NCBI GenBank assembly: GCA_965223545.1
Contig: OZ245006.1
Coordinates: 512,001-576,000 of the forward strand
Reading direction: 5' to 3'
DNA from: Planctomycetota bacterium
Lineage (GTDB): Bacteria; Planctomycetota; UBA1135; UBA2386
DNA length: 64,000 bases
This document shows, in pieces, positions 2,295 to 9,346 of this stretch. Made by a program: the position numbers and the translations under genes. Every line of letters starts with the position of its first letter. Position 1 is the stretch's first letter. The notes under the pieces are model-generated. The model did not search any database, was not told the origin of the DNA, and was given only the letters and a program-made list of their open reading frames with translations.

Positions 2295-3457
2295 ATGACA
2301 CGCACCGCTCCTCTCGCCACCGCCCTCCTCCTATCGCTCGCGGCCAACGCCCAGAGCGTCCTCGTCGTCGACCTCCAGGGGGGGCCGGGGTCGCAGTTCA
2401 CGCAGATCCAACCCGCCATCGACGCCGCTGCGCCAAACGACACCATCGTGGTGCGGCCCGCGGTCGGTCCGGCGCCGTATCGAGGGTTTCGGGTGGACAA
2501 GCCGCTGCGCATCATCGGCGAGCCGGGCGCGCGCGTCGGCAGCTCCGCAACAGTCGTGCCGCTGGCGCGCGCGGCGATGGAAGTGCGCGGCATACCCGCG
2601 GGGTCCGCGGTCACACTCTGCGGCCTCGAAGAGGACTACGAGGACCCGTTCACTTGCGGACTGTGGATCGACGACAACCGCGGCGCGGTCTTCGTCGAGG
2701 AGCTGCTCCTGGAGTGCCCGTCCATCATCGAGGACTCCGATGCCGTGAGCTTCACGCGCACGCAGTTCGACAGTGTGTCGGTCTCTTCGAGTGGCGTCAC
2801 GTTCACCGATTGTTCGGCCGCCGGTGCTCAAACGGCGACGACGCTGACGACCCCGGCAATGCGTGTGAGACAGAGCGCGGTGACGATCGCCGGTGGCCGC
2901 TGGACCGGCGCCGACGCGATCCCCTCGTGCTGCACAGAGGGCCCGGCGATCACCATCGACGCGGGCACTCGGCTGACCGTGACCGGCGACACCACCACGC
3001 TCGTTCAGGGAGGGCAGAACCCGATCTATGCGGGCGCCTCGGCGATCGCGACCACCGGCGGAGCGATCCTGCTCGACCCGGACCCCGTGCTGGTCTCGAG
3101 TGGCGGAATGCCGGTGATCTCCGGCAGCGCAACCGTACAGCACCAGCGCGTGCCCTACCTGCTCACCGAGGTCGCCTCCGGTGTGCTCTCGACCTCGCTC
3201 TACACCTGGATCGGCTCCCAGGTCTGGCTGTTCACCGGCGAGCTCAACGCCCCGGTGCAACTGGCGACCGGTATCGCCGACCTTTGGATCGCGACCCCCG
3301 TCCTGCTCGCCGCCGGACAAGTGCAGCGCCGGGTCCACCACGACCGGATCCCGATCCCGAGCTGCCCCGAGGCACCGCGCTCCCACTCCAGTACGCGGTG
3401 GTCAACGGCCGCGAGCTGACGCTCTCGAACGCGGTCGGCACGACGCTGGTGCCGTAG
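2295..3457 (+). CDS. Secreted beta-helix-like hypothetical protein with an apparent 1-bp frameshift near 3361 (pseudogene or sequence error)
   Basis: Signal peptide (..AANA|Q) and FTQIQPAIDAA motif. The plausible C-terminus LPRGTALPLQYAVV...LTLSNAVGTTLVP lies in another frame ending at 3457. Confidence 0.65.
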
Positions 3458-3621
3458 CGGGCAGCCGCACACCACTGCTCTTAGCCCCAGTGGCGCCGCG
3501 GGTTCCGCGGCGCGAGGCGCCGAGCGCCACAGACCACCGCTGGCTTGGCGACAGCGAGGGGGAGAATCTCGGGCCGCGGTCTGCGACGCTGTTGCGCTGT
3601 CCCACGCCTTCCTCGAGACCC

Positions 3622-5055
3622 ATGATCGACCCCCTCCACCAGGACTGGAACGCCCGGCTCGAACGCGCCGAATCCCTGCTCCCGGTCATCGGCCGCCTGT
3701 ATCGCAACCACGGCATCGTCACCAAGGTGTTCGGTCGGTTCCTGCTCAACGCGAGCCCCGCCGAGATCTTGAAGATCCACAAGTCGGCGCGGCGGGTCAC
3801 CGGCGAGGCACTGTCGGTGCACGACACCGGCATCATCCTCGACGGCCTGGCGGCATTGGCCCCGCCCGGCATCCTGCGGCTGGACGTGGGCAAGCTCGCA
3901 GTGCGATACAAGGCGTCCGGCAGCGGTGATGTGACCGCGTTCTTGCGCGACGCCCTCGCCACCTATGAACCCCAACGCCTGCCGGCGCGCGAACGCCCGC
4001 AGGACATCGTCCTCTACGGGTTCGGCCGCATTGGCCGGCTGGTCGCGCGCATGCTGCTCGACAAGCAGTCGGCGGGCATGCGGCTGCGATTGGCCGCCAT
4101 CGTCGTCCGGCCGGGCAAGGGCGACGACCTCACCAAGCGCGCCAGCTTGCTGCGCCGCGACTCGGTGCACGGCCCGTTCCAAGGCTCGATCTCGGTCGAC
4201 CGCGAGCGCAATCAGATCCTCGCCAACGGCGTCGCCATCCAGGTGATCTACGCGCGCAATCCCGAGGAGATCGACTACACGTCCTTCGGCATCCACGACG
4301 CGGTGGTCATCGACAACACCGGGGTATGGCGCGACGAAGCCGGCCTCGGCAAGCACCTGAAGGCCAAGGGCACCAAGCGCGTGGTGCTCACCGCGCCGGG
4401 CAAGGGTGACATCCCCAACATCGTCTACGGCATCAACCACGACGCGATCACCGACGAGCAGGCGATTCTCTCGGCGGCGAGCTGCACGACCAACGCGATC
4501 GTGCCGGTGTTGAAGCTGATCCACGATCGGTTCGGCATCGAGCAGGGCCACATCGAGACCTGCCACGCCTACACCAACGACCAAAACCTGATCGACAACT
4601 ATCACGACAAGCCGCGGCGCGGCCGGGCGGCCCCGCTCAACATGGTCATCACCGAGACCGGCGCGGCCAAGGCGGTGGCCAAAGCCCTGCCCGAGCTCGC
4701 CGGCAAGCTGACCGGCAACGCGATCCGGGTGCCGACCCCGAACGTGTCACTGGCCGTCATGCAGCTCTTCTTGCGCGACGCGACCACGGTCGAAGAGCTC
4801 AACGATCACCTGCGGCACGAGAGCCTCAACGGCGAGCAGCAGCTGCAGATCGAGTACTCGGTGTCGCCGGACGCGGTCTCGAGCGACTTCGTCGGCTTCG
4901 ATCACCCCGCCATCATCGACGCACCGGCGACCATCGTGACCGGCCGCCACGCCATCGTCTACGTGTGGTACGACAACGAGCATGGGTACAGCCGCCAGGT
5001 CGTGCGGCTCGTCGAACGCGTCTCCGGCGTGCGACCGCCGACCTTCCCCCGCTGA
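3622..5055 (+). CDS. gap: Glyceraldehyde-3-phosphate dehydrogenase, long form with N-terminal extension
   Basis: YGFGRIGR nucleotide-binding motif, catalytic ASCTTN, RVPTPNVS, WYDNEHGYS. Confidence 0.95.
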   Translation: MIDPLHQDWNARLERAESLLPVIGRLYRNHGIVTKVFGRFLLNASPAEILKIHKSARRVTGEALSVHDTGIILDGLAALAPPGILRLDVGKLAVRYKASGSGDVTAFLRDALATYEPQRLPARERPQDIVLYGFGRIGRLVARMLLDKQSAGMRLRLAAIVVRPGKGDDLTKRASLLRRDSVHGPFQGSISVDRERNQILANGVAIQVIYARNPEEIDYTSFGIHDAVVIDNTGVWRDEAGLGKHLKAKGTKRVVLTAPGKGDIPNIVYGINHDAITDEQAILSAASCTTNAIVPVLKLIHDRFGIEQGHIETCHAYTNDQNLIDNYHDKPRRGRAAPLNMVITETGAAKAVAKALPELAGKLTGNAIRVPTPNVSLAVMQLFLRDATTVEELNDHLRHESLNGEQQLQIEYSVSPDAVSSDFVGFDHPAIIDAPATIVTGRHAIVYVWYDNEHGYSRQVVRLVERVSGVRPPTFPR

Positions 5056-5069
5056 AAGTACGGAGCCAG

Positions 5070-5310
5070 TCCTGCCCCGACAGATTTTGTCGGCCCTTCA
5101 GGGCAGGAAACTAGCCGCTGAGGAAGGGGGCGGGGAACGTGTGAGGGGCCCGGCAGCTACGCCCCCAATAGCCACTGGAGCACGTTTGCCCCAGAGCCAG
5201 TCTGGGTCCGAGTTGGCCATCCTTCACTGGTGAGGGGCACGTCGCCGTGCCCACTCCCGCAGGTCAGATTCGTTTGATCGCCGCCTCGGGCCGGGCCCAC
5301 CACAACAAGG
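5070..5310 (+). ncRNA. Candidate IS110 bridge RNA (structured non-coding left end)
   Basis: Stem-loops at 5071-5107, about 5132-5192 and 5235-5252. GAGCCAG (5194-5200) matches the left flank plus core; CAGGTCAG (5260-5267) matches the right end plus core. Confidence 0.6.
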
Positions 5311-5320
5311 AGGATGAAGT

Positions 5321-6703
5321 ATGGCTCGGAAGGGCAGAACGAGGAAGGGCAAGAAGCCCGCAGCGGAAGTATTACCAGTCGTGAAGCCCAACGCCGCCGG
5401 AATCGACATCGGCAGCCGCGAGCACTGGGTGTGCGCAGCAGCACCCGACGGCAGTCGTCCGATCAAGCGATTCGGAACGACGACGCCCCAACTAGAGGCG
5501 CTCGCGGACTGGCTGGAGGAGCTCGGAGTGCGATCCGTCGCGATGGAGAGCACCTATGTCTACTGGATTCCCGTCTACGAGCTACTCGAGTCGAGAGGCT
5601 TCGAGGTCATCCTCGCGAATGCCCGCGAGGTGAAGAACGTGCCGGGCCGCTCCAAGTCCGATGCCAGCGATTGCAGTTGGCTGCAGAAGCTACACACCTA
5701 TGGCCTCATTCGCGCTTCGTTCCGGCCTCCGAAGGACATCTGTGCGTTGCGGACCCTGCAACGCCATGCCGCGTCTTTGATCGCGCAGCGCACGCGCCAC
5801 ACGCAGTTGATGCAGCGGTCACTGGATCAGATGAACGTGGCGATCCATCGCGCGGTAACGGACATCACCGGCAAGACCGGCCTCGCGATCATCCGCGCGA
5901 TTCTCGCTGGTGAACGCGACCCTCGAGCGCTCGCCAGACTGCGTGATCCGCGCTGCAAGATCTCCGAGAAGGAGCTCGCGGATCACTTGCAAGGGACCTG
6001 GATCGAGGAGCACATCTTCACTCTCGCTTCGGGCTTGCGGATGCTCGAGCACACCGACCACGAGATCGAGTCGGTCGAGAAGCGATTGATGGCGATGATC
6101 GAGGACCTGCAACCGGAGGAAGCCAAGACGGCCGACGTCCCCGAGCATCCAGACCCCCGCAAGGAGAGGAGCATCCGAACGAAGGGCGGCCGGGAGCTTC
6201 GCGATGCCCTCTGCCGGCTCGTCGGGTGTGATCTCACGCGAATCGACGGTATCAGCCCGAGCACGGCCATGATCGTGCTCACCGAGGTCGGCTACGACCT
6301 CGATGCTTTCCCGACCGAGAAGCACTTCGTCTCCTGGCTACGCCTGTGCCCACGTCAAGCCGTCTCGGGTGGAAAGCGCATCAAGAAGCACCGCAACAAC
6401 ATCGCGGTCAGCAGGATCGCCACGGTCCTCCGGATGGCCGCCCTGTCCCTCCAACGTACTCAGACAGCTCTCGGCGCACACTTCCGCAAGATCGCCCGCG
6501 CGAAGGACGGCAACGTCGCCATCTTTGCCATCGCCCGCAAACTGGCCCTGCTCATCTACCGCATGCTGAAGTTCGGCCAGGACTACGTAGACGAAGGCGC
6601 CAAGGCCTACGAGGAGCGCTTCACCCAGCGACGCATCGTCGGACTCCGACAGAACGCTAAATCCCTCGGGTACAAGCTCATACCGATCGTCGAGGCTGGG
6701 TGA
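5321..6703 (+). CDS. IS110-family recombinase/transposase
   Basis: DEDD RuvC-like motifs GIDIG, AMEST, KSDASD; C-terminal domain with IDGIS, AVSGGK (catalytic Ser) and AIARKLA; AGGAGG RBS. Confidence 0.95.
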   Translation: MARKGRTRKGKKPAAEVLPVVKPNAAGIDIGSREHWVCAAAPDGSRPIKRFGTTTPQLEALADWLEELGVRSVAMESTYVYWIPVYELLESRGFEVILANAREVKNVPGRSKSDASDCSWLQKLHTYGLIRASFRPPKDICALRTLQRHAASLIAQRTRHTQLMQRSLDQMNVAIHRAVTDITGKTGLAIIRAILAGERDPRALARLRDPRCKISEKELADHLQGTWIEEHIFTLASGLRMLEHTDHEIESVEKRLMAMIEDLQPEEAKTADVPEHPDPRKERSIRTKGGRELRDALCRLVGCDLTRIDGISPSTAMIVLTEVGYDLDAFPTEKHFVSWLRLCPRQAVSGGKRIKKHRNNIAVSRIATVLRMAALSLQRTQTALGAHFRKIARAKDGNVAIFAIARKLALLIYRMLKFGQDYVDEGAKAYEERFTQRRIVGLRQNAKSLGYKLIPIVEAG

Positions 6704-6865
6704 GTTTCAGGTCAGGCTCCGTTTCATCACTCCCCACCCCACCCACCCCCGCGCCGGGGTGGCGCTCCTACCGCCTCCCACCGCCATCGGTAGAATTTCC
6801 GGTCGCGAATCGGTCGAGCACGCGGATCAACCTCTCGCACCCGTTCATCCGCCGCTCTTCTCTCC

Positions 6866-9346
6866 GTGCCGAACGATCCCCCCGCGAACCCTCCGCAGCG
6901 CAACCGCGACTGGGTGCGCACCAACCACGGCCTCGTGCGCCGCTGGGCGCGCCGCATCGCCGGCCGCGACCGGTCCGCCGCCGACGATCTCGAGCAGGCG
7001 GCATTGCTGTCGATCCTGCGCACCGAGCACCTGCCCGCGGAAGGCGCCGAGGCCGCCTGGGTGGCACAGGTGCTGCGGCGGCAGCGCGCCGCGACCGCCC
7101 GCAGCGAGCAGCGCCGCCACCGCCTGGAAGCCGAGGTCGCCGGTGACGGCGAGGAAACCGCCGCCGTCGAGGTCGCCGAGTGGCAGATGCTGCGGCGCGA
7201 GGTGCGCACTTGCGTGCAGCGGCTGCGCGAGCCCTACCGAACGACACTGTTGTTGCGCTACTACGAGGGGTTGCCGCCCCGCGCGATCGCCGCCCGACAA
7301 GACGTCGCGCTACGCACCGTCAACAAGCGCATCGAGCGCGGCCTGAAGCTGCTGCGCAGTCGCCTGGCGGGCGCGCAGCGCCGACCGTGGAAAGCGATCT
7401 TGCTCTGGCGGCCGTGGCGCAGGTTGGTGCCGGCCGGCGCGGTGTTGAGCATTGTTGCCGTGGCCGCTTCGTGGCCACTCTGGCGTGCGGACAGCGCCCC
7501 GACTGGTCCCCGAGCACCCAGCGCAACCGCCAGCGGCGGCGATCCCGCGCCGGCCGCGGCGCGCGGACCGTCCACGTCCGACCGCGTCGCGACGACTGCA
7601 AACGCGGCGAACCGACCCGACCAGGAGACCGCGACGGCACGGACGCTGCGCGGCCGCGTCGTCGACCTGACCGGCGCCCCCCGCGCGGGCATCACCGTGC
7701 GGTTTGCCGCCGGCCGCATGCTGCACGACCCCATGGGCAGGGCCACTTTTGTCGGGGCCGAGCCCGCGATCGCGACCGAAGTCGACACCGATGCACAGGG
7801 CCATTTCTCGCTCCCCGTGCCAACCGGCGCATCGGGCCGAGTGCGGACGTCCGGCACCGACACCGCCACGCTGCTCGGCCTGTCGGTCGGCGCGGACGCG
7901 GCGCTCACCGACGAGGTCGAGCTGGTGGCCGGCGACGCGGTCACTGTCCGCGGCCGAGTGCTCGGCAGCCGCGGCCTGGATTGCGTCGTCGCGCTGCCGC
8001 TACCGCGCCAAGCCGCGGCGGCGCGGCTCGCCCGCAACCGCCGCCTCGCCCTGGAGAACCCATGGGTCCGCTGCGACCGCGACGGCGCGTTCGCGTTCGA
8101 CGCCGTCGCCCTCGCCGAGGGCCAGCACATCACCGTCCAGGCCGCCGGCCTGCCCGAGCAGAGCTTCGCGCTGACCGGCCGCGACCCGCAGGACCTGCGC
8201 CTCGCGCTGCGCGAGACCGCGCTCCCCCTGCTCGGCGGCACCGTCCTCGACGATCGCGGCCAACCGCTGGCGGAGGCGCTGGTCGGCTGCGGTGACGTCC
8301 GCGTCCGCACCCGCGCCGACGGCTCGTTCCGCATCGCCGTCTCACCTCGCGCGGCCGAATGCTGGGCGCTCGCCGACGGCTGGAGCGCGGACCGGCTCCC
8401 GCTGCGGCGGGGTGAGCCCGACGACGTGATCGCCGCCGGAGTTCCCGTGACCCTGCGTCTCACCGAGACCGCCGCATCGATCCGAGGACTCGTACGCTGG
8501 CCCGACGGGACGCCAGCGGCCGGGGTCGCAGTCTTTGCCGAGAACCCAGTGATCGCCGGCGACAGCCCCTCGAGCCTGTTCCTCGAGACTTACCTCGGCG
8601 GCGGGGGCCCGGTGCCGCAGCGCGTATTCACCGACGCCCGGGGCCGCTTCGAGCTGCCACACCTGCTGCGCCGCAACTATCGGCTGGCGGCGATCGACCC
8701 GAAGACCCTCGCCAAGGGCCTCGCACCGCGGACGCCGGCCGGCAGCACCGGTGTCGAGGTCCAGCTGGATTCCAAAGACCTGGTCGCGGTCGAAGGGCGG
8801 CTCTCGTTTCGCGACGGCGCGCCGGCCTCCGGCACGGTGCTGCGCCTGCGGCGCGTGATGCTGCTGATCCCGTTTCCATCGGGGCAGAGATTGGGCGCGA
8901 CCCTGCCCGGCCCCACGGCGACCACCAAAGCCGACGGCAGCTACACCCTGCACGCACCCCGTGGCGCGGACCTGCTGGCAACGGTGGCCGATCCGGACCT
9001 GTTCGCCGACACCATTCCGATCGACACCAGCAACGGCCCGGTGCACCGAGACCTGGTCGTCAGCCGGCGGTTGCCGCTCTGTGTTCGCGTCACATCGTCG
9101 GCACTCGATGCCGACAGCTTCGAGCTCCTCGATGGCAACCGTCGCCTCCCCCTGTGGGAGGACGCGCCCGACAACTCCAACAGCTTGCAGCGCCTCGGCC
9201 CCCGCGCGGAGTTGGTCCGCGGCCAACCCCGCTGGGTCATCGGCCTGGACATCGCCACGGCGATCGTCTTCTTCCGCGGCGACGAGGAGGTCGCGCGGCA
9301 GCCGGTCCAGCTGCGGGCCGGGCAGGACAACGTGCTCGACTTCTGA
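6866..9346 (+). CDS. ECF sigma-70 factor fused via a TM helix to carboxypeptidase-regulatory-like repeats
   Basis: ADDLEQ region 2, LREPYRTTLLLRYYEGLPPRAIA...TVNKRIERG region 4, TM segment, GRVVD repeats. Confidence 0.85.
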   Translation: MPNDPPANPPQRNRDWVRTNHGLVRRWARRIAGRDRSAADDLEQAALLSILRTEHLPAEGAEAAWVAQVLRRQRAATARSEQRRHRLEAEVAGDGEETAAVEVAEWQMLRREVRTCVQRLREPYRTTLLLRYYEGLPPRAIAARQDVALRTVNKRIERGLKLLRSRLAGAQRRPWKAILLWRPWRRLVPAGAVLSIVAVAASWPLWRADSAPTGPRAPSATASGGDPAPAAARGPSTSDRVATTANAANRPDQETATARTLRGRVVDLTGAPRAGITVRFAAGRMLHDPMGRATFVGAEPAIATEVDTDAQGHFSLPVPTGASGRVRTSGTDTATLLGLSVGADAALTDEVELVAGDAVTVRGRVLGSRGLDCVVALPLPRQAAAARLARNRRLALENPWVRCDRDGAFAFDAVALAEGQHITVQAAGLPEQSFALTGRDPQDLRLALRETALPLLGGTVLDDRGQPLAEALVGCGDVRVRTRADGSFRIAVSPRAAECWALADGWSADRLPLRRGEPDDVIAAGVPVTLRLTETAASIRGLVRWPDGTPAAGVAVFAENPVIAGDSPSSLFLETYLGGGGPVPQRVFTDARGRFELPHLLRRNYRLAAIDPKTLAKGLAPRTPAGSTGVEVQLDSKDLVAVEGRLSFRDGAPASGTVLRLRRVMLLIPFPSGQRLGATLPGPTATTKADGSYTLHAPRGADLLATVADPDLFADTIPIDTSNGPVHRDLVVSRRLPLCVRVTSSALDADSFELLDGNRRLPLWEDAPDNSNSLQRLGPRAELVRGQPRWVIGLDIATAIVFFRGDEEVARQPVQLRAGQDNVLDF

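What the first reader, a model, noticed from the sequence alone, without database searches (positions are those of the whole stretch)
5070..5310. IS110 left end contains sequences matching both its own target and donor junctions: a readable candidate bridge RNA
Seen: a 250-bp structured non-coding left end. GAGCCAG at 5194-5200 equals the left flank plus core (5063-5069). CAGGTCAG at 5260-5267 equals the element's right end plus core (6708-6715). Each match lies just 3' of a stem-loop, and ACTG at 5226-5229 is complementary to the predicted circle junction CAGT. Established: IS110 recombinases use a bridge RNA with target- and donor-binding loops. Inference: these are guide segments. Having the longer guides on the 3' side of each hairpin may differ from the IS621 arrangement. 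I could not find a perfect right-target guide.
Basis: partly seen in the sequence, partly recalled or inferred. Interest (0 to 1): 0.72.

Follow-up and report, generated by a model that had tools for sequence, protein, structure and literature searches.

The report
Guide RNA reading folded donor DNA
This jumping gene carries an RNA guide of a known kind, but one of its four guide segments reads a spot inside the element's own end, which suggests that it recognises its donor as a single DNA strand folded back on itself rather than as a normal double helix.

Summary
The left end is a real four-guide bridge RNA of an IS110-family element (5070-6715, core AG; 23 genomic copies, all at one position of a REP-like palindrome). 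A right-target guide exists (AGCC, 5170-5173; z 11.7). ACTG is a conserved motif, not a guide. Read on the other strand, the RNA has IS621 order, core CT and handshake.

New: the third guide (5219-5227) ignores the DNA beside the core. It covaries with a site about 25 nt inside the left end (5094-5100), next to a variable-length hairpin and about 13 nt before a 6-bp inverted repeat that pairs with the right end (89 elements, 5.35 vs 3.53 of 7; 17:0 in independent pairs). Both donor guides thus read the bottom strand. Best model (0.6, inferred): a fold-back single-stranded donor, attC-like. ISPpu9's published ends fit the geometry, but mutating its hairpin did not abolish circles. No expression data. 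One earlier scan note describes a twin-loop IS110 RNA elsewhere, not this feature.

The parts
5053..5067 (+). Left half of the REP-like palindromic target, starting at the stop codon of an upstream GAPDH-like gene
   Evidence: Same motif left of 23 of 23 copies; 85 empty copies in the genome; Pfam Gp_dh_N/C for ORF 3181-5055
5068..5069 (+). Core dinucleotide AG at the left junction (CT on the bottom strand)
   Evidence: IS621 core is CT
5070..5076 (+). 7-nt spacer between core and hairpin (inferred displaced strand of the folded donor); its first two bases match the handshake of guide 2
   Evidence: Core-to-hairpin distance has modes 8 and 7 nt; guide 2 position 8 equals the first left-end base in 80 of 89, wobble in 6 more
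5077..5093 (.). Variable-length DNA hairpin, 6-bp stem and 5-nt loop here
   Evidence: Found without using guide 3 in 77 of 89 homologues (56% in shuffles at that score; 52% vs 18% at the stricter score). 17 of 23 genomic copies carry A5080G plus a 1-nt loop deletion
5094..5100 (-). Site X: bottom strand complementary to guide 3 (6 Watson-Crick pairs plus 1 U.G over guide positions 2-8)
   Evidence: for this copy; covariation
5107..5112 (+). Left arm (GAAACT) of an asymmetric subterminal inverted repeat, 37 nt inside the left end
   Evidence: 6/6 complementary to the right-end arm in 69 of 92 and at least 5/6 in 89 of 92; different-sequence arms reach 6/6 in 3.5%; 25 arm-pair types
5140..5304 (+). 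Predicted bridge RNA core: three-way junction carrying a target-binding loop (about 5161-5207) and a donor-binding loop (about 5208-5289). Ends not mapped
   Evidence: Consensus fold of 40 homologues; 23 of 31 pairs with two-sided changes, 95% of cells paired; no Rfam family
5167..5175 (+). [quoted passage not shown]
   Evidence: z 11.7 at that register only;
5194..5202 (+). Guide 2: 7 nt identical to left target plus core, then a 2-nt handshake (TC) matching 5070-5071; IS621 RTG+HSG equivalent
5219..5227 (+). Guide 3: identical to site X, so it pairs with the bottom strand about 25 nt inside the left end; no match beside the core
5260..5269 (+). Guide 4: identical to the right end plus core; IS621 RDG equivalent on flipped strands
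5308..5314 (+). Shine-Dalgarno-like AGGAGGA
   Evidence: Sequence
5321..6703 (+). 460-aa IS110-family DEDD recombinase (D29, E76, D114, D117, S349 align with IS621 D11, E60, D102, D105, S241)
   Evidence: PF01548 and PF02371; alignment to IS621 8wt6; IS621 residues
6703..6708 (+). Right arm (AGTTTC) of the subterminal inverted repeat
6709..6715 (+). Right-end donor half read by guide 4, ending in the core AG (6714-6715)
6716..6730 (+). Right half of the REP-like target
   Evidence: GCTC follows 22 of 23 copies

Best explanation
An IS110-family element whose left end encodes a four-guide bridge RNA, with the DNA polarity flipped relative to IS621, so the bottom strand (core CT) is the one exchanged first. 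Shown by covariation: guides 1 and 2 read opposite strands of the target, as usual. Guides 3 and 4 both read the bottom strand of the element's ends: guide 4 beside the core, guide 3 at site X. Inferred: at the end-to-end junction the bottom strand folds back on itself. The inverted repeat closes one arm, the hairpin forms the other, and between them lies a mismatched bubble of about 14-15 nt (spacer, core, 5 nt) against about 13 nt (X plus 5-6 nt). That is the size of IS621's 14-nt donor site. X thus stands in for the missing complementary strand, so a copied-out single-stranded circle (or a locally extruded strand) is a full-match donor. One strand exchange would follow, with replication finishing the product, as recalled for integron attC sites.
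For: Guide 3 has no signal beside the core (z at most 1.9 over five registers, n 86). It matches X in 89 non-redundant elements anchored on the inverted repeat, not on the guide: 5.35 of 7 vs 3.53 +/- 0.10, maximum 3.90 in 5000 permutations; other guides 2.7-3.3. In the clade at 49% identity or more (n 33) the score is 6.42 vs 4.66, and position 4 follows all four bases (A/A 14, G/G 7, T/T 6, C/C 4, one G/A). Of 31 disjoint close pairs, 17 favour the own guide, 0 the swapped one, 14 tie. X abuts the hairpin (0 or -1 nt in 42 of 77) and hairpin length varies while the flanking distances stay fixed. Both bubble sides fall in 12-16 nt in 50 of 72, and they are not complementary beyond a 7th repeat pair. 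Hairpin mismatches are A.C on the top strand (G.T on the bottom) 15 times vs G.T 5 times, unlike the RNA stems (24 G.U, 10 A.C; Fisher p 0.002). The handshake lies on the bottom strand (80 of 89), as IS621's lies on its first-exchanged strand. Six loci at 30-36% identity show X at 5-7 of 7 (2 of 720 permutations). ISPpu9's published ends have AG, 6 nt, hairpin, 13 nt and a 6-bp repeat matching the right end; its left box lies upstream of the mapped start site, the junction has no promoter, and a MITE keeps both boxes. IS621 and CazIS110 excise single-stranded circles, and CazIS110's single-stranded donor is about 20-fold worse at the LD-RT junction, the defect that a surrogate strand would cure.
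Against: No experiment, no RNA data and no circle were seen: the junction 14-mer is absent from the genome, and contigs of four runs show no joint (contigs cannot show absence). In ISPpu9, mutating the left-box inverted repeat still gave correct minicircles by end-point PCR; ISPpu9's kinship rests only on end geometry. In this element, 17 of 23 copies have a top-strand G.T (bottom A.C) in the hairpin. Three other strand tests gave no signal: folding energy (bottom lower in 34 of 89), GNA triloops (3 top, 4 bottom), and wobble direction of guide 3 mismatches (37 vs 43). There is no replichore bias (11 of 23 vs 55 of 85 empty sites, p 0.16). Below 49% identity the match is partial (4.71 of 7). 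The G.T/A.C counts are small and not corrected for kinship. 40 of 157 parsed loci were dropped for lack of a junction match.
Confidence: 0.6

Rival explanations
1. Guide 3 does pair with X, but as a separate docking or control site (end recognition for excision, or autorepression of left-end transcription). Catalysis uses guide 4 alone as a half-match on ordinary duplex DNA.
For: It explains the covariation. Half-match recombination is reported for IS621. ISPpu9 circles survive mutation of the hairpin. Many X sites resemble a -10 hexamer by eye.
Against: It does not explain why spacer, X and the inverted repeat together reproduce a 14-nt donor bubble while hairpin length varies, nor the end-to-end repeat covariation. 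No sigma-70 site was found here. In ISPpu9 the start site is about 84 nt inside the end, so X is not the -10 box, and the junction has no promoter.
Confidence: 0.2
2. The same pairing occurs, but on a double-stranded supercoiled circle in which the RNP extrudes or loops out the junction; no free single-stranded intermediate is involved.
For: It has the same geometry and covariation. The strand-asymmetry evidence is mixed, and there is no replichore bias. CazIS110 prefers duplex donors.
Against: The arms are short (6-7 bp and 5-8 bp) around a mismatched bubble, so extrusion from a duplex would be costly (inference). A.C exceeds G.T on the top strand.
Confidence: 0.12
3. The guide 3/X identity is not DNA pairing: it is shared ancestry, a local duplication, or an RNA switch in which both segments compete for one partner.
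For: Kin share sequence. Registers 11-15 nt were allowed. Distant members match only 4-5 of 7.
Against: Permutations had the same freedom and fixed registers also show the excess. The count in independent pairs is 17:0. The match stops at 7-8 nt. No covarying complement of guide 3 exists in three left-end or right-end regions. ISPpu9's box lies upstream of its start site.
Confidence: 0.05
4. One reading: a canonical donor loop in which ACTG (5226-5229) pairs with the top strand across the circle junction.
For: The 4-mer is complementary in this element.
Against: The same motif follows guide 1. Its first base is complementary to the donor in 18 of 89 homologues, and there is no top-strand signal beside the core.
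Confidence: 0.03

Closest known systems
IS621 / ISCro4 bridge RNA (Durrant 2024 PMC11208160; Hiraizumi 2024 PMC11208158, 2026 PMC13626964)
   Same: DEDD plus catalytic-serine recombinase, RNA in the left end, target loop before donor loop, dinucleotide core (CT on the bottom strand here), handshake after the core-pairing guide, short right-side target guide, REP target.
   Different: 460 aa vs 326 aa and remote (E 7.5e-11). DNA polarity is flipped relative to transcription. The two donor guides read the same strand at sites about 25 nt apart, not opposite strands across the core. There is an asymmetric 6-7 bp subterminal repeat and a left-end hairpin.
IS1111-group seekRNAs (ISEc11, ISKpn4, ISPa11; Siddiquee 2024 PMC11187229)
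   Same: The top-strand target match lies 5' of the bottom-strand match; there is a subterminal inverted repeat.
   Different: The RNA is upstream of the gene, and the transposase is 460 aa rather than 330-350 aa. The left repeat arm sits 33-43 nt inside the end.
ISPpu9 / MITEPpu9 of Pseudomonas putida KT2440 (PMC12288879, PMC8450116)
   Same: AG core, REP target, circles joined at AG, 43-bp left box with a conserved hairpin, 16-bp right box, long structured 5' leader. Its Table S2 sequences give the same spacer-hairpin-13 nt-repeat layout.
   Different: In the parts I read, the authors left the hairpin unexplained and mapped no guides. I could not obtain its protein or leader, so kinship and a guide 3/X match are untested. 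It has antisense and MITE RNAs that I did not look for here.
ISPpu10 target stem-loop (bioRxiv 10.64898/2026.03.19.712850)
   Same: A DNA stem-loop beside a guide-paired site matters in an IS110 system.
   Different: That stem-loop is in the target and its donor guides read opposite strands. Here the hairpin is in the donor and repositions a guide's partner.
Integron attC sites (folded single-strand substrates; PMC11641012 listing only, rest recalled)
   Same: Works like: the proposed substrate is one strand folded into an imperfect hairpin.
   Different: Tyrosine recombinase, no RNA guide; no homology claimed.

Membership tests
IS110 family | DEDD RuvC-like domain plus Tnp domain with catalytic serine | tested here: met
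   PF01548 E 1e-26, PF02371 E 6e-14; D29, E76, D114, D117, S349 align with IS621
IS110 family | Site-specific insertion at a shared core without target duplication | tested here: met
   23 filled and 85 empty sites
IS110 family | Circular intermediate | tested here: inconclusive
   No junction in the genome or in contigs of 4 runs; contigs drop rare forms
Bridge RNA (IS621 type) | Two-loop structured RNA in a non-coding end | tested here: met
Bridge RNA (IS621 type) | Target loop pairs with both target strands across the core | tested here: met
Bridge RNA (IS621 type) | Donor loop pairs with opposite strands on either side of the core | tested here: not met
   Guide 4 met; guide 3 has no signal beside the core and matches the same strand at X
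Bridge RNA (IS621 type) | Handshake dinucleotide after the core-pairing guide | tested here: met
   Guide 2 position 8 (80 of 89). Position 9 and guide 4's handshake show no clear covariation
Bridge RNA (IS621 type) | RNA is expressed and bound by the recombinase | not testable with these tools
   No RNA holder listed
IS110 group | Long non-coding end upstream of the gene | tested here: met
   251 nt left vs 12 nt right
IS110 group | Bottom-strand target match 5' of top-strand match; no or short subterminal repeat | tested here: not met
   Order reversed relative to transcription; 6-7 bp covarying repeat
IS1111 group | Downstream non-coding end and 330-350 aa transposase | tested here: not met
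IS1111 group | Placement within the IS1111 transposase clade | not tested
   No tree with ISfinder references was built
ISPpu9-like clade | AG core, left box with hairpin, 16-bp right box | tested here: met
   Compared by eye with Table S2
ISPpu9-like clade | Transposase similarity to ISPpu9 | not tested
   Sequence not obtained; one search gave one unrelated match

The most novel reading that the evidence does not exclude
A widespread long-transposase branch of IS110 (members down to about 30% identity, probably including ISPpu9) is an RNA-guided recombinase for folded single-stranded DNA. The element encodes, inside its left end, a surrogate complementary strand that only meets the core when the bottom strand folds back, so the copied-out single-stranded circle is directly a full-match donor and is inserted by one strand exchange.
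Probability: 0.55. Interest if true: 0.87.

Novelty: new variant of a known kind. Interest (0 to 1): 0.76.

Why it matters
Whether IS110 circles are single- or double-stranded, and whether transposition is cut-and-paste or copy-and-paste, is disputed in 2025-2026 papers. A guide that can only be satisfied when one strand folds is evolutionary evidence on that question and makes it testable with a few oligonucleotides. It also gives design rules for a branch of bridge recombinases that standard pipelines would mis-specify: one published pipeline rebuilds the donor from about the first 23 nt of the left end in fixed register, which cuts off X and the inverted repeat. If the model holds, it would be a programmable integrase for single-stranded cargo. 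It would also account for ISPpu9's unexplained 43-bp left box.

Tried and rejected
Rfam: three matches, all far below gathering score. No sigma-70 promoter or terminator in 4980-5340. Viral contigs: no relative. No RNA holder listed. No circle joint in contigs of X1, X4, X5, X7 (4 of 24 listed runs). Class and phylum searches found relatives in 4 of 200 and 5 of 400 other genomes.

Parsing: an HMM parse was off by one column and lost most loci, so it was replaced by a matrix chain that agreed with the regex parse in 68 of 70. The score cut (above 0) lies below the null maximum of 15, so weak parses were kept only if both junctions matched at least 6/7.

Rejected: ACTG as donor guide; a 3-nt core; a bulged right-target guide (register -1 suffices); X as a fixed-spacing -10 box; a covarying RNA partner for guide 3.

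No signal: strand preference by folding energy, GNA loops and wobble direction; replichore bias.

Hold-out of 7 later loci: 5 gave both junctions, with guide 3/X scores 5, 5, 2, 5, 6. The 2 (L217) came from a tie in picking the repeat; by eye it is 6/7. L216 and L220 did not parse. For the distant group, the first script misplaced three junctions and was re-anchored on the repeat. That pattern was written after looking at the sequences, so it is not blind; L219 and L223 are close kin; L226 lacks its left end; L220's short spacer may reflect truncation by another element, so my notebook remark on it is withdrawn.

Five motifs were not found in 6 of 7 Durrant supplements, so no ISfinder name was obtained that way. 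ISPpu9 DNA was not obtained. No structure or complex prediction was run.

Full report
**Element.** The window holds an IS110-family element from 5070 to 6715 with a 460-aa recombinase (5321-6703; PF01548 and PF02371) whose DEDD and serine residues align with IS621. The genome has 23 full copies in six near-identical versions and one 114-bp remnant. All 23 have the same left flank and 22 the same right flank; 85 empty copies of the same palindrome fix the ends. The left 7-mer alone occurs 1969 times in the genome and the 10-mer with three right-hand bases 104 times, so the right side contributes to site choice.

**Observation.** The region folds well (z -3.5), and both long matches together arise in 32 of 20000 resamplings.

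**Homologues.** I gathered loci from genomes, metagenomes and plasmids. Of 197 examined, 171 had a full-length gene, 165 had enough upstream DNA to parse, and 157 scored above zero. Of these 117 had both junctions (25 dropped for no left match or a short contig, 15 for no right match), 92 were non-redundant and 89 had the inverted repeat at 5/6 or better. The RNA is a three-way junction with two internal loops; 23 of 31 pairs change on both sides. It carries four 9-nt segments, the first three followed by TGG.

**Three ordinary guides.** Guide 2 matches the left flank 7/7 in 28 of 45, and guide 4 the right end in 49 of 58, against 0.3% for swapped guides (window searches, so not circular). [quoted passage not shown] The core is AG. 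Guide 2's eighth base equals the first left-end base in 80 of 89. In IS621 the handshake follows the guide that pairs with the first-cleaved strand and the core is CT. Relabelling the strands therefore gives IS621's order exactly, with the bottom strand first exchanged (inference). The order relative to transcription is the IS1111 order, though the RNA is upstream.

**The odd guide.** Guide 3 shows no pairing beside the core. Every left end reads: core, 6-9 nt, a hairpin of variable length, 12-14 nt, then a 6-mer complementary to the 6-mer before the last 7 nt of the right end. The first 7-8 nt after the hairpin (X) are identical to guide 3. Anchored on the repeat, own guides score 5.35 of 7 against 3.53 +/- 0.10 (maximum 3.90 in 5000 permutations). 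The result holds within the close clade (6.42 vs 4.66, n 33, 16 different 7-mers) and the distant one (4.71 vs 3.40, n 56). In 31 disjoint close pairs it is 17 to 0 with 14 ties. Later loci gave 5, 5, 2, 5, 6 in five of seven that parsed, and six loci at 30-36% identity gave 5-7 (2 of 720 permutations, not blind). Identity to the top strand means pairing with the bottom strand, the strand that guide 4 also reads. No covarying complement exists in the RNA.

**Mechanism (inferred).** Written 5' to 3', the bottom strand of the joined ends is: repeat arm, 5-6 nt, X complement, hairpin, 7-8 nt, CT, 5 nt, repeat arm. Folded, it is an imperfect hairpin with duplex beyond each guide site and a mismatched bubble of 14-15 against 13 nt (both sides 12-16 nt in 50 of 72; not complementary). 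This has the topology of IS621's opened 14-bp donor, with X replacing the second strand. IS621 releases mainly single-stranded circles and CazIS110 copies out one strand, but their left donor guide needs the absent strand; CazIS110's single-stranded donor is about 20-fold worse at that junction. This branch would have solved that in cis. Completion by replication after one exchange is an analogy to integrons, recalled rather than sourced; only a listing on folded attC sites was seen.

**Evidence on strand and state is mixed.** For: top-strand A.C 15 vs G.T 5 in 66 stems, against 10 vs 24 in RNA stems (p 0.002). Against or neutral: the commoner version of this very element has a top-strand G.T (17 of 23); energies, GNA loops and wobble direction show nothing; there is no replichore bias; no circle or RNA was found.

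**ISPpu9.** Its supplement lists a left box of AG, 6 nt, hairpin, 13 nt and a 6-mer complementary to the right box, which ends with 7 nt to AG. It circularises at AG and needs both boxes and the transposase. It forms no junction promoter, and its start site lies about 84 nt inside the end, so the box is DNA-level. However, mutating the hairpin left circles detectable, so the stem is not essential for excision; insertion was not scored for that mutant in the text I read. I could not get its protein or leader.

**Literature seen.** Durrant 2024 PMC11208160: passages, section 12, supplement search with one file unreadable. Siddiquee 2024 PMC11187229: abstract, passages, sections 6 and 13. Hiraizumi 2024 PMC11208158: passages. 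Hiraizumi 2026 PMC13626964: abstract, passages, discussion. 10.1101/2025.10.25.684509: first fifth and passages. 10.64898/2026.08.31.748434: first sixth. 10.64898/2026.03.19.712850: abstract and passages. 10.64898/2026.10.21.760802, 10.64898/2026.08.14.744561, 10.1101/2024.06.21.599552 and 10.1101/2025.05.14.653916: passages. PMC12288879: passages, sections 16, 17, most of 18, first third of the supplement. PMC8450116: passages and supplement search. Eight searches showed no description of same-strand donor guides or a fold-back donor. Figures were not visible (notably Durrant Extended Data 10c and the 2026 preprint's Fig. S12), bioRxiv supplements are closed and most subscription journals are not held, so prior description is not excluded.

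**Verdict.** Bridge RNA: about 0.95. Guide 3 pairs functionally with X on the bottom strand: about 0.9. Fold-back single-strand donor: 0.6. It is a member of the IS110 family, but it fails the IS621 feature of opposite-strand donor guides and fits neither named group cleanly. New variant of a known kind; interest 0.76.

Noticed in passing
PMC12288879 supplement Table S1/S2: A primer within the ISPpu9-associated small RNA Ssr9 shows the guide-2 context (CCC, then a 7-mer, 2 nt, TGG), and its 7-mer equals the last 7 nt of the ISPpu9 right box. Ssr9 may be the bridge RNA of MITEPpu9, aimed at the parent element's right end, which would explain why it sits directly downstream. Inferred from primers only.
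   Followed up: partly
L012, L092, L113, L119, L138, L183: In 6 of 92 homologues the left flank is itself an element right end, and guide 2 matches it: these elements target the ends of sibling elements and build tandem arrays.
   Followed up: partly
G000:C1:988112-988240: Remnant joining about 114 bp from the start of the gene directly to an intact right end, without the left end.
   Followed up: no
G000:C1:4826215-4829708: Two copies about 170 bp apart have identical left flanks and one has a non-REP right flank, suggesting a one-ended or half-match event or a duplication.
   Followed up: no
window 5053-5069 and 6716-6730: A REP-like palindrome family with 85 empty copies; 11 of 23 insertions have a second REP half within 50 nt. 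No REP-associated transposase was sought.
   Followed up: partly
L026, L055, L134, L198-L212, L214, L218: A subclade uses an AA core with an A-rich guide 2. By eye, several of these (L026, L055, L214, L218) interrupt the reading frame of another transposase gene.
   Followed up: no
plasmid collection: One family member occurs on about 60 Citrobacter and 18 Enterobacter plasmid records, so cultured hosts carry the branch. Its RNA was not examined.
   Followed up: no
window 6866-9346: ECF-type sigma factor fused to carboxypeptidase-regulatory-like repeats directly downstream.
   Followed up: no
window 5163-5178, 5190-5205, 5216-5230: Guides sit between a CC-rich motif and TG, recalling the box motifs of TIGR arrays and C/D RNAs (recalled, not tested).
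   Followed up: no
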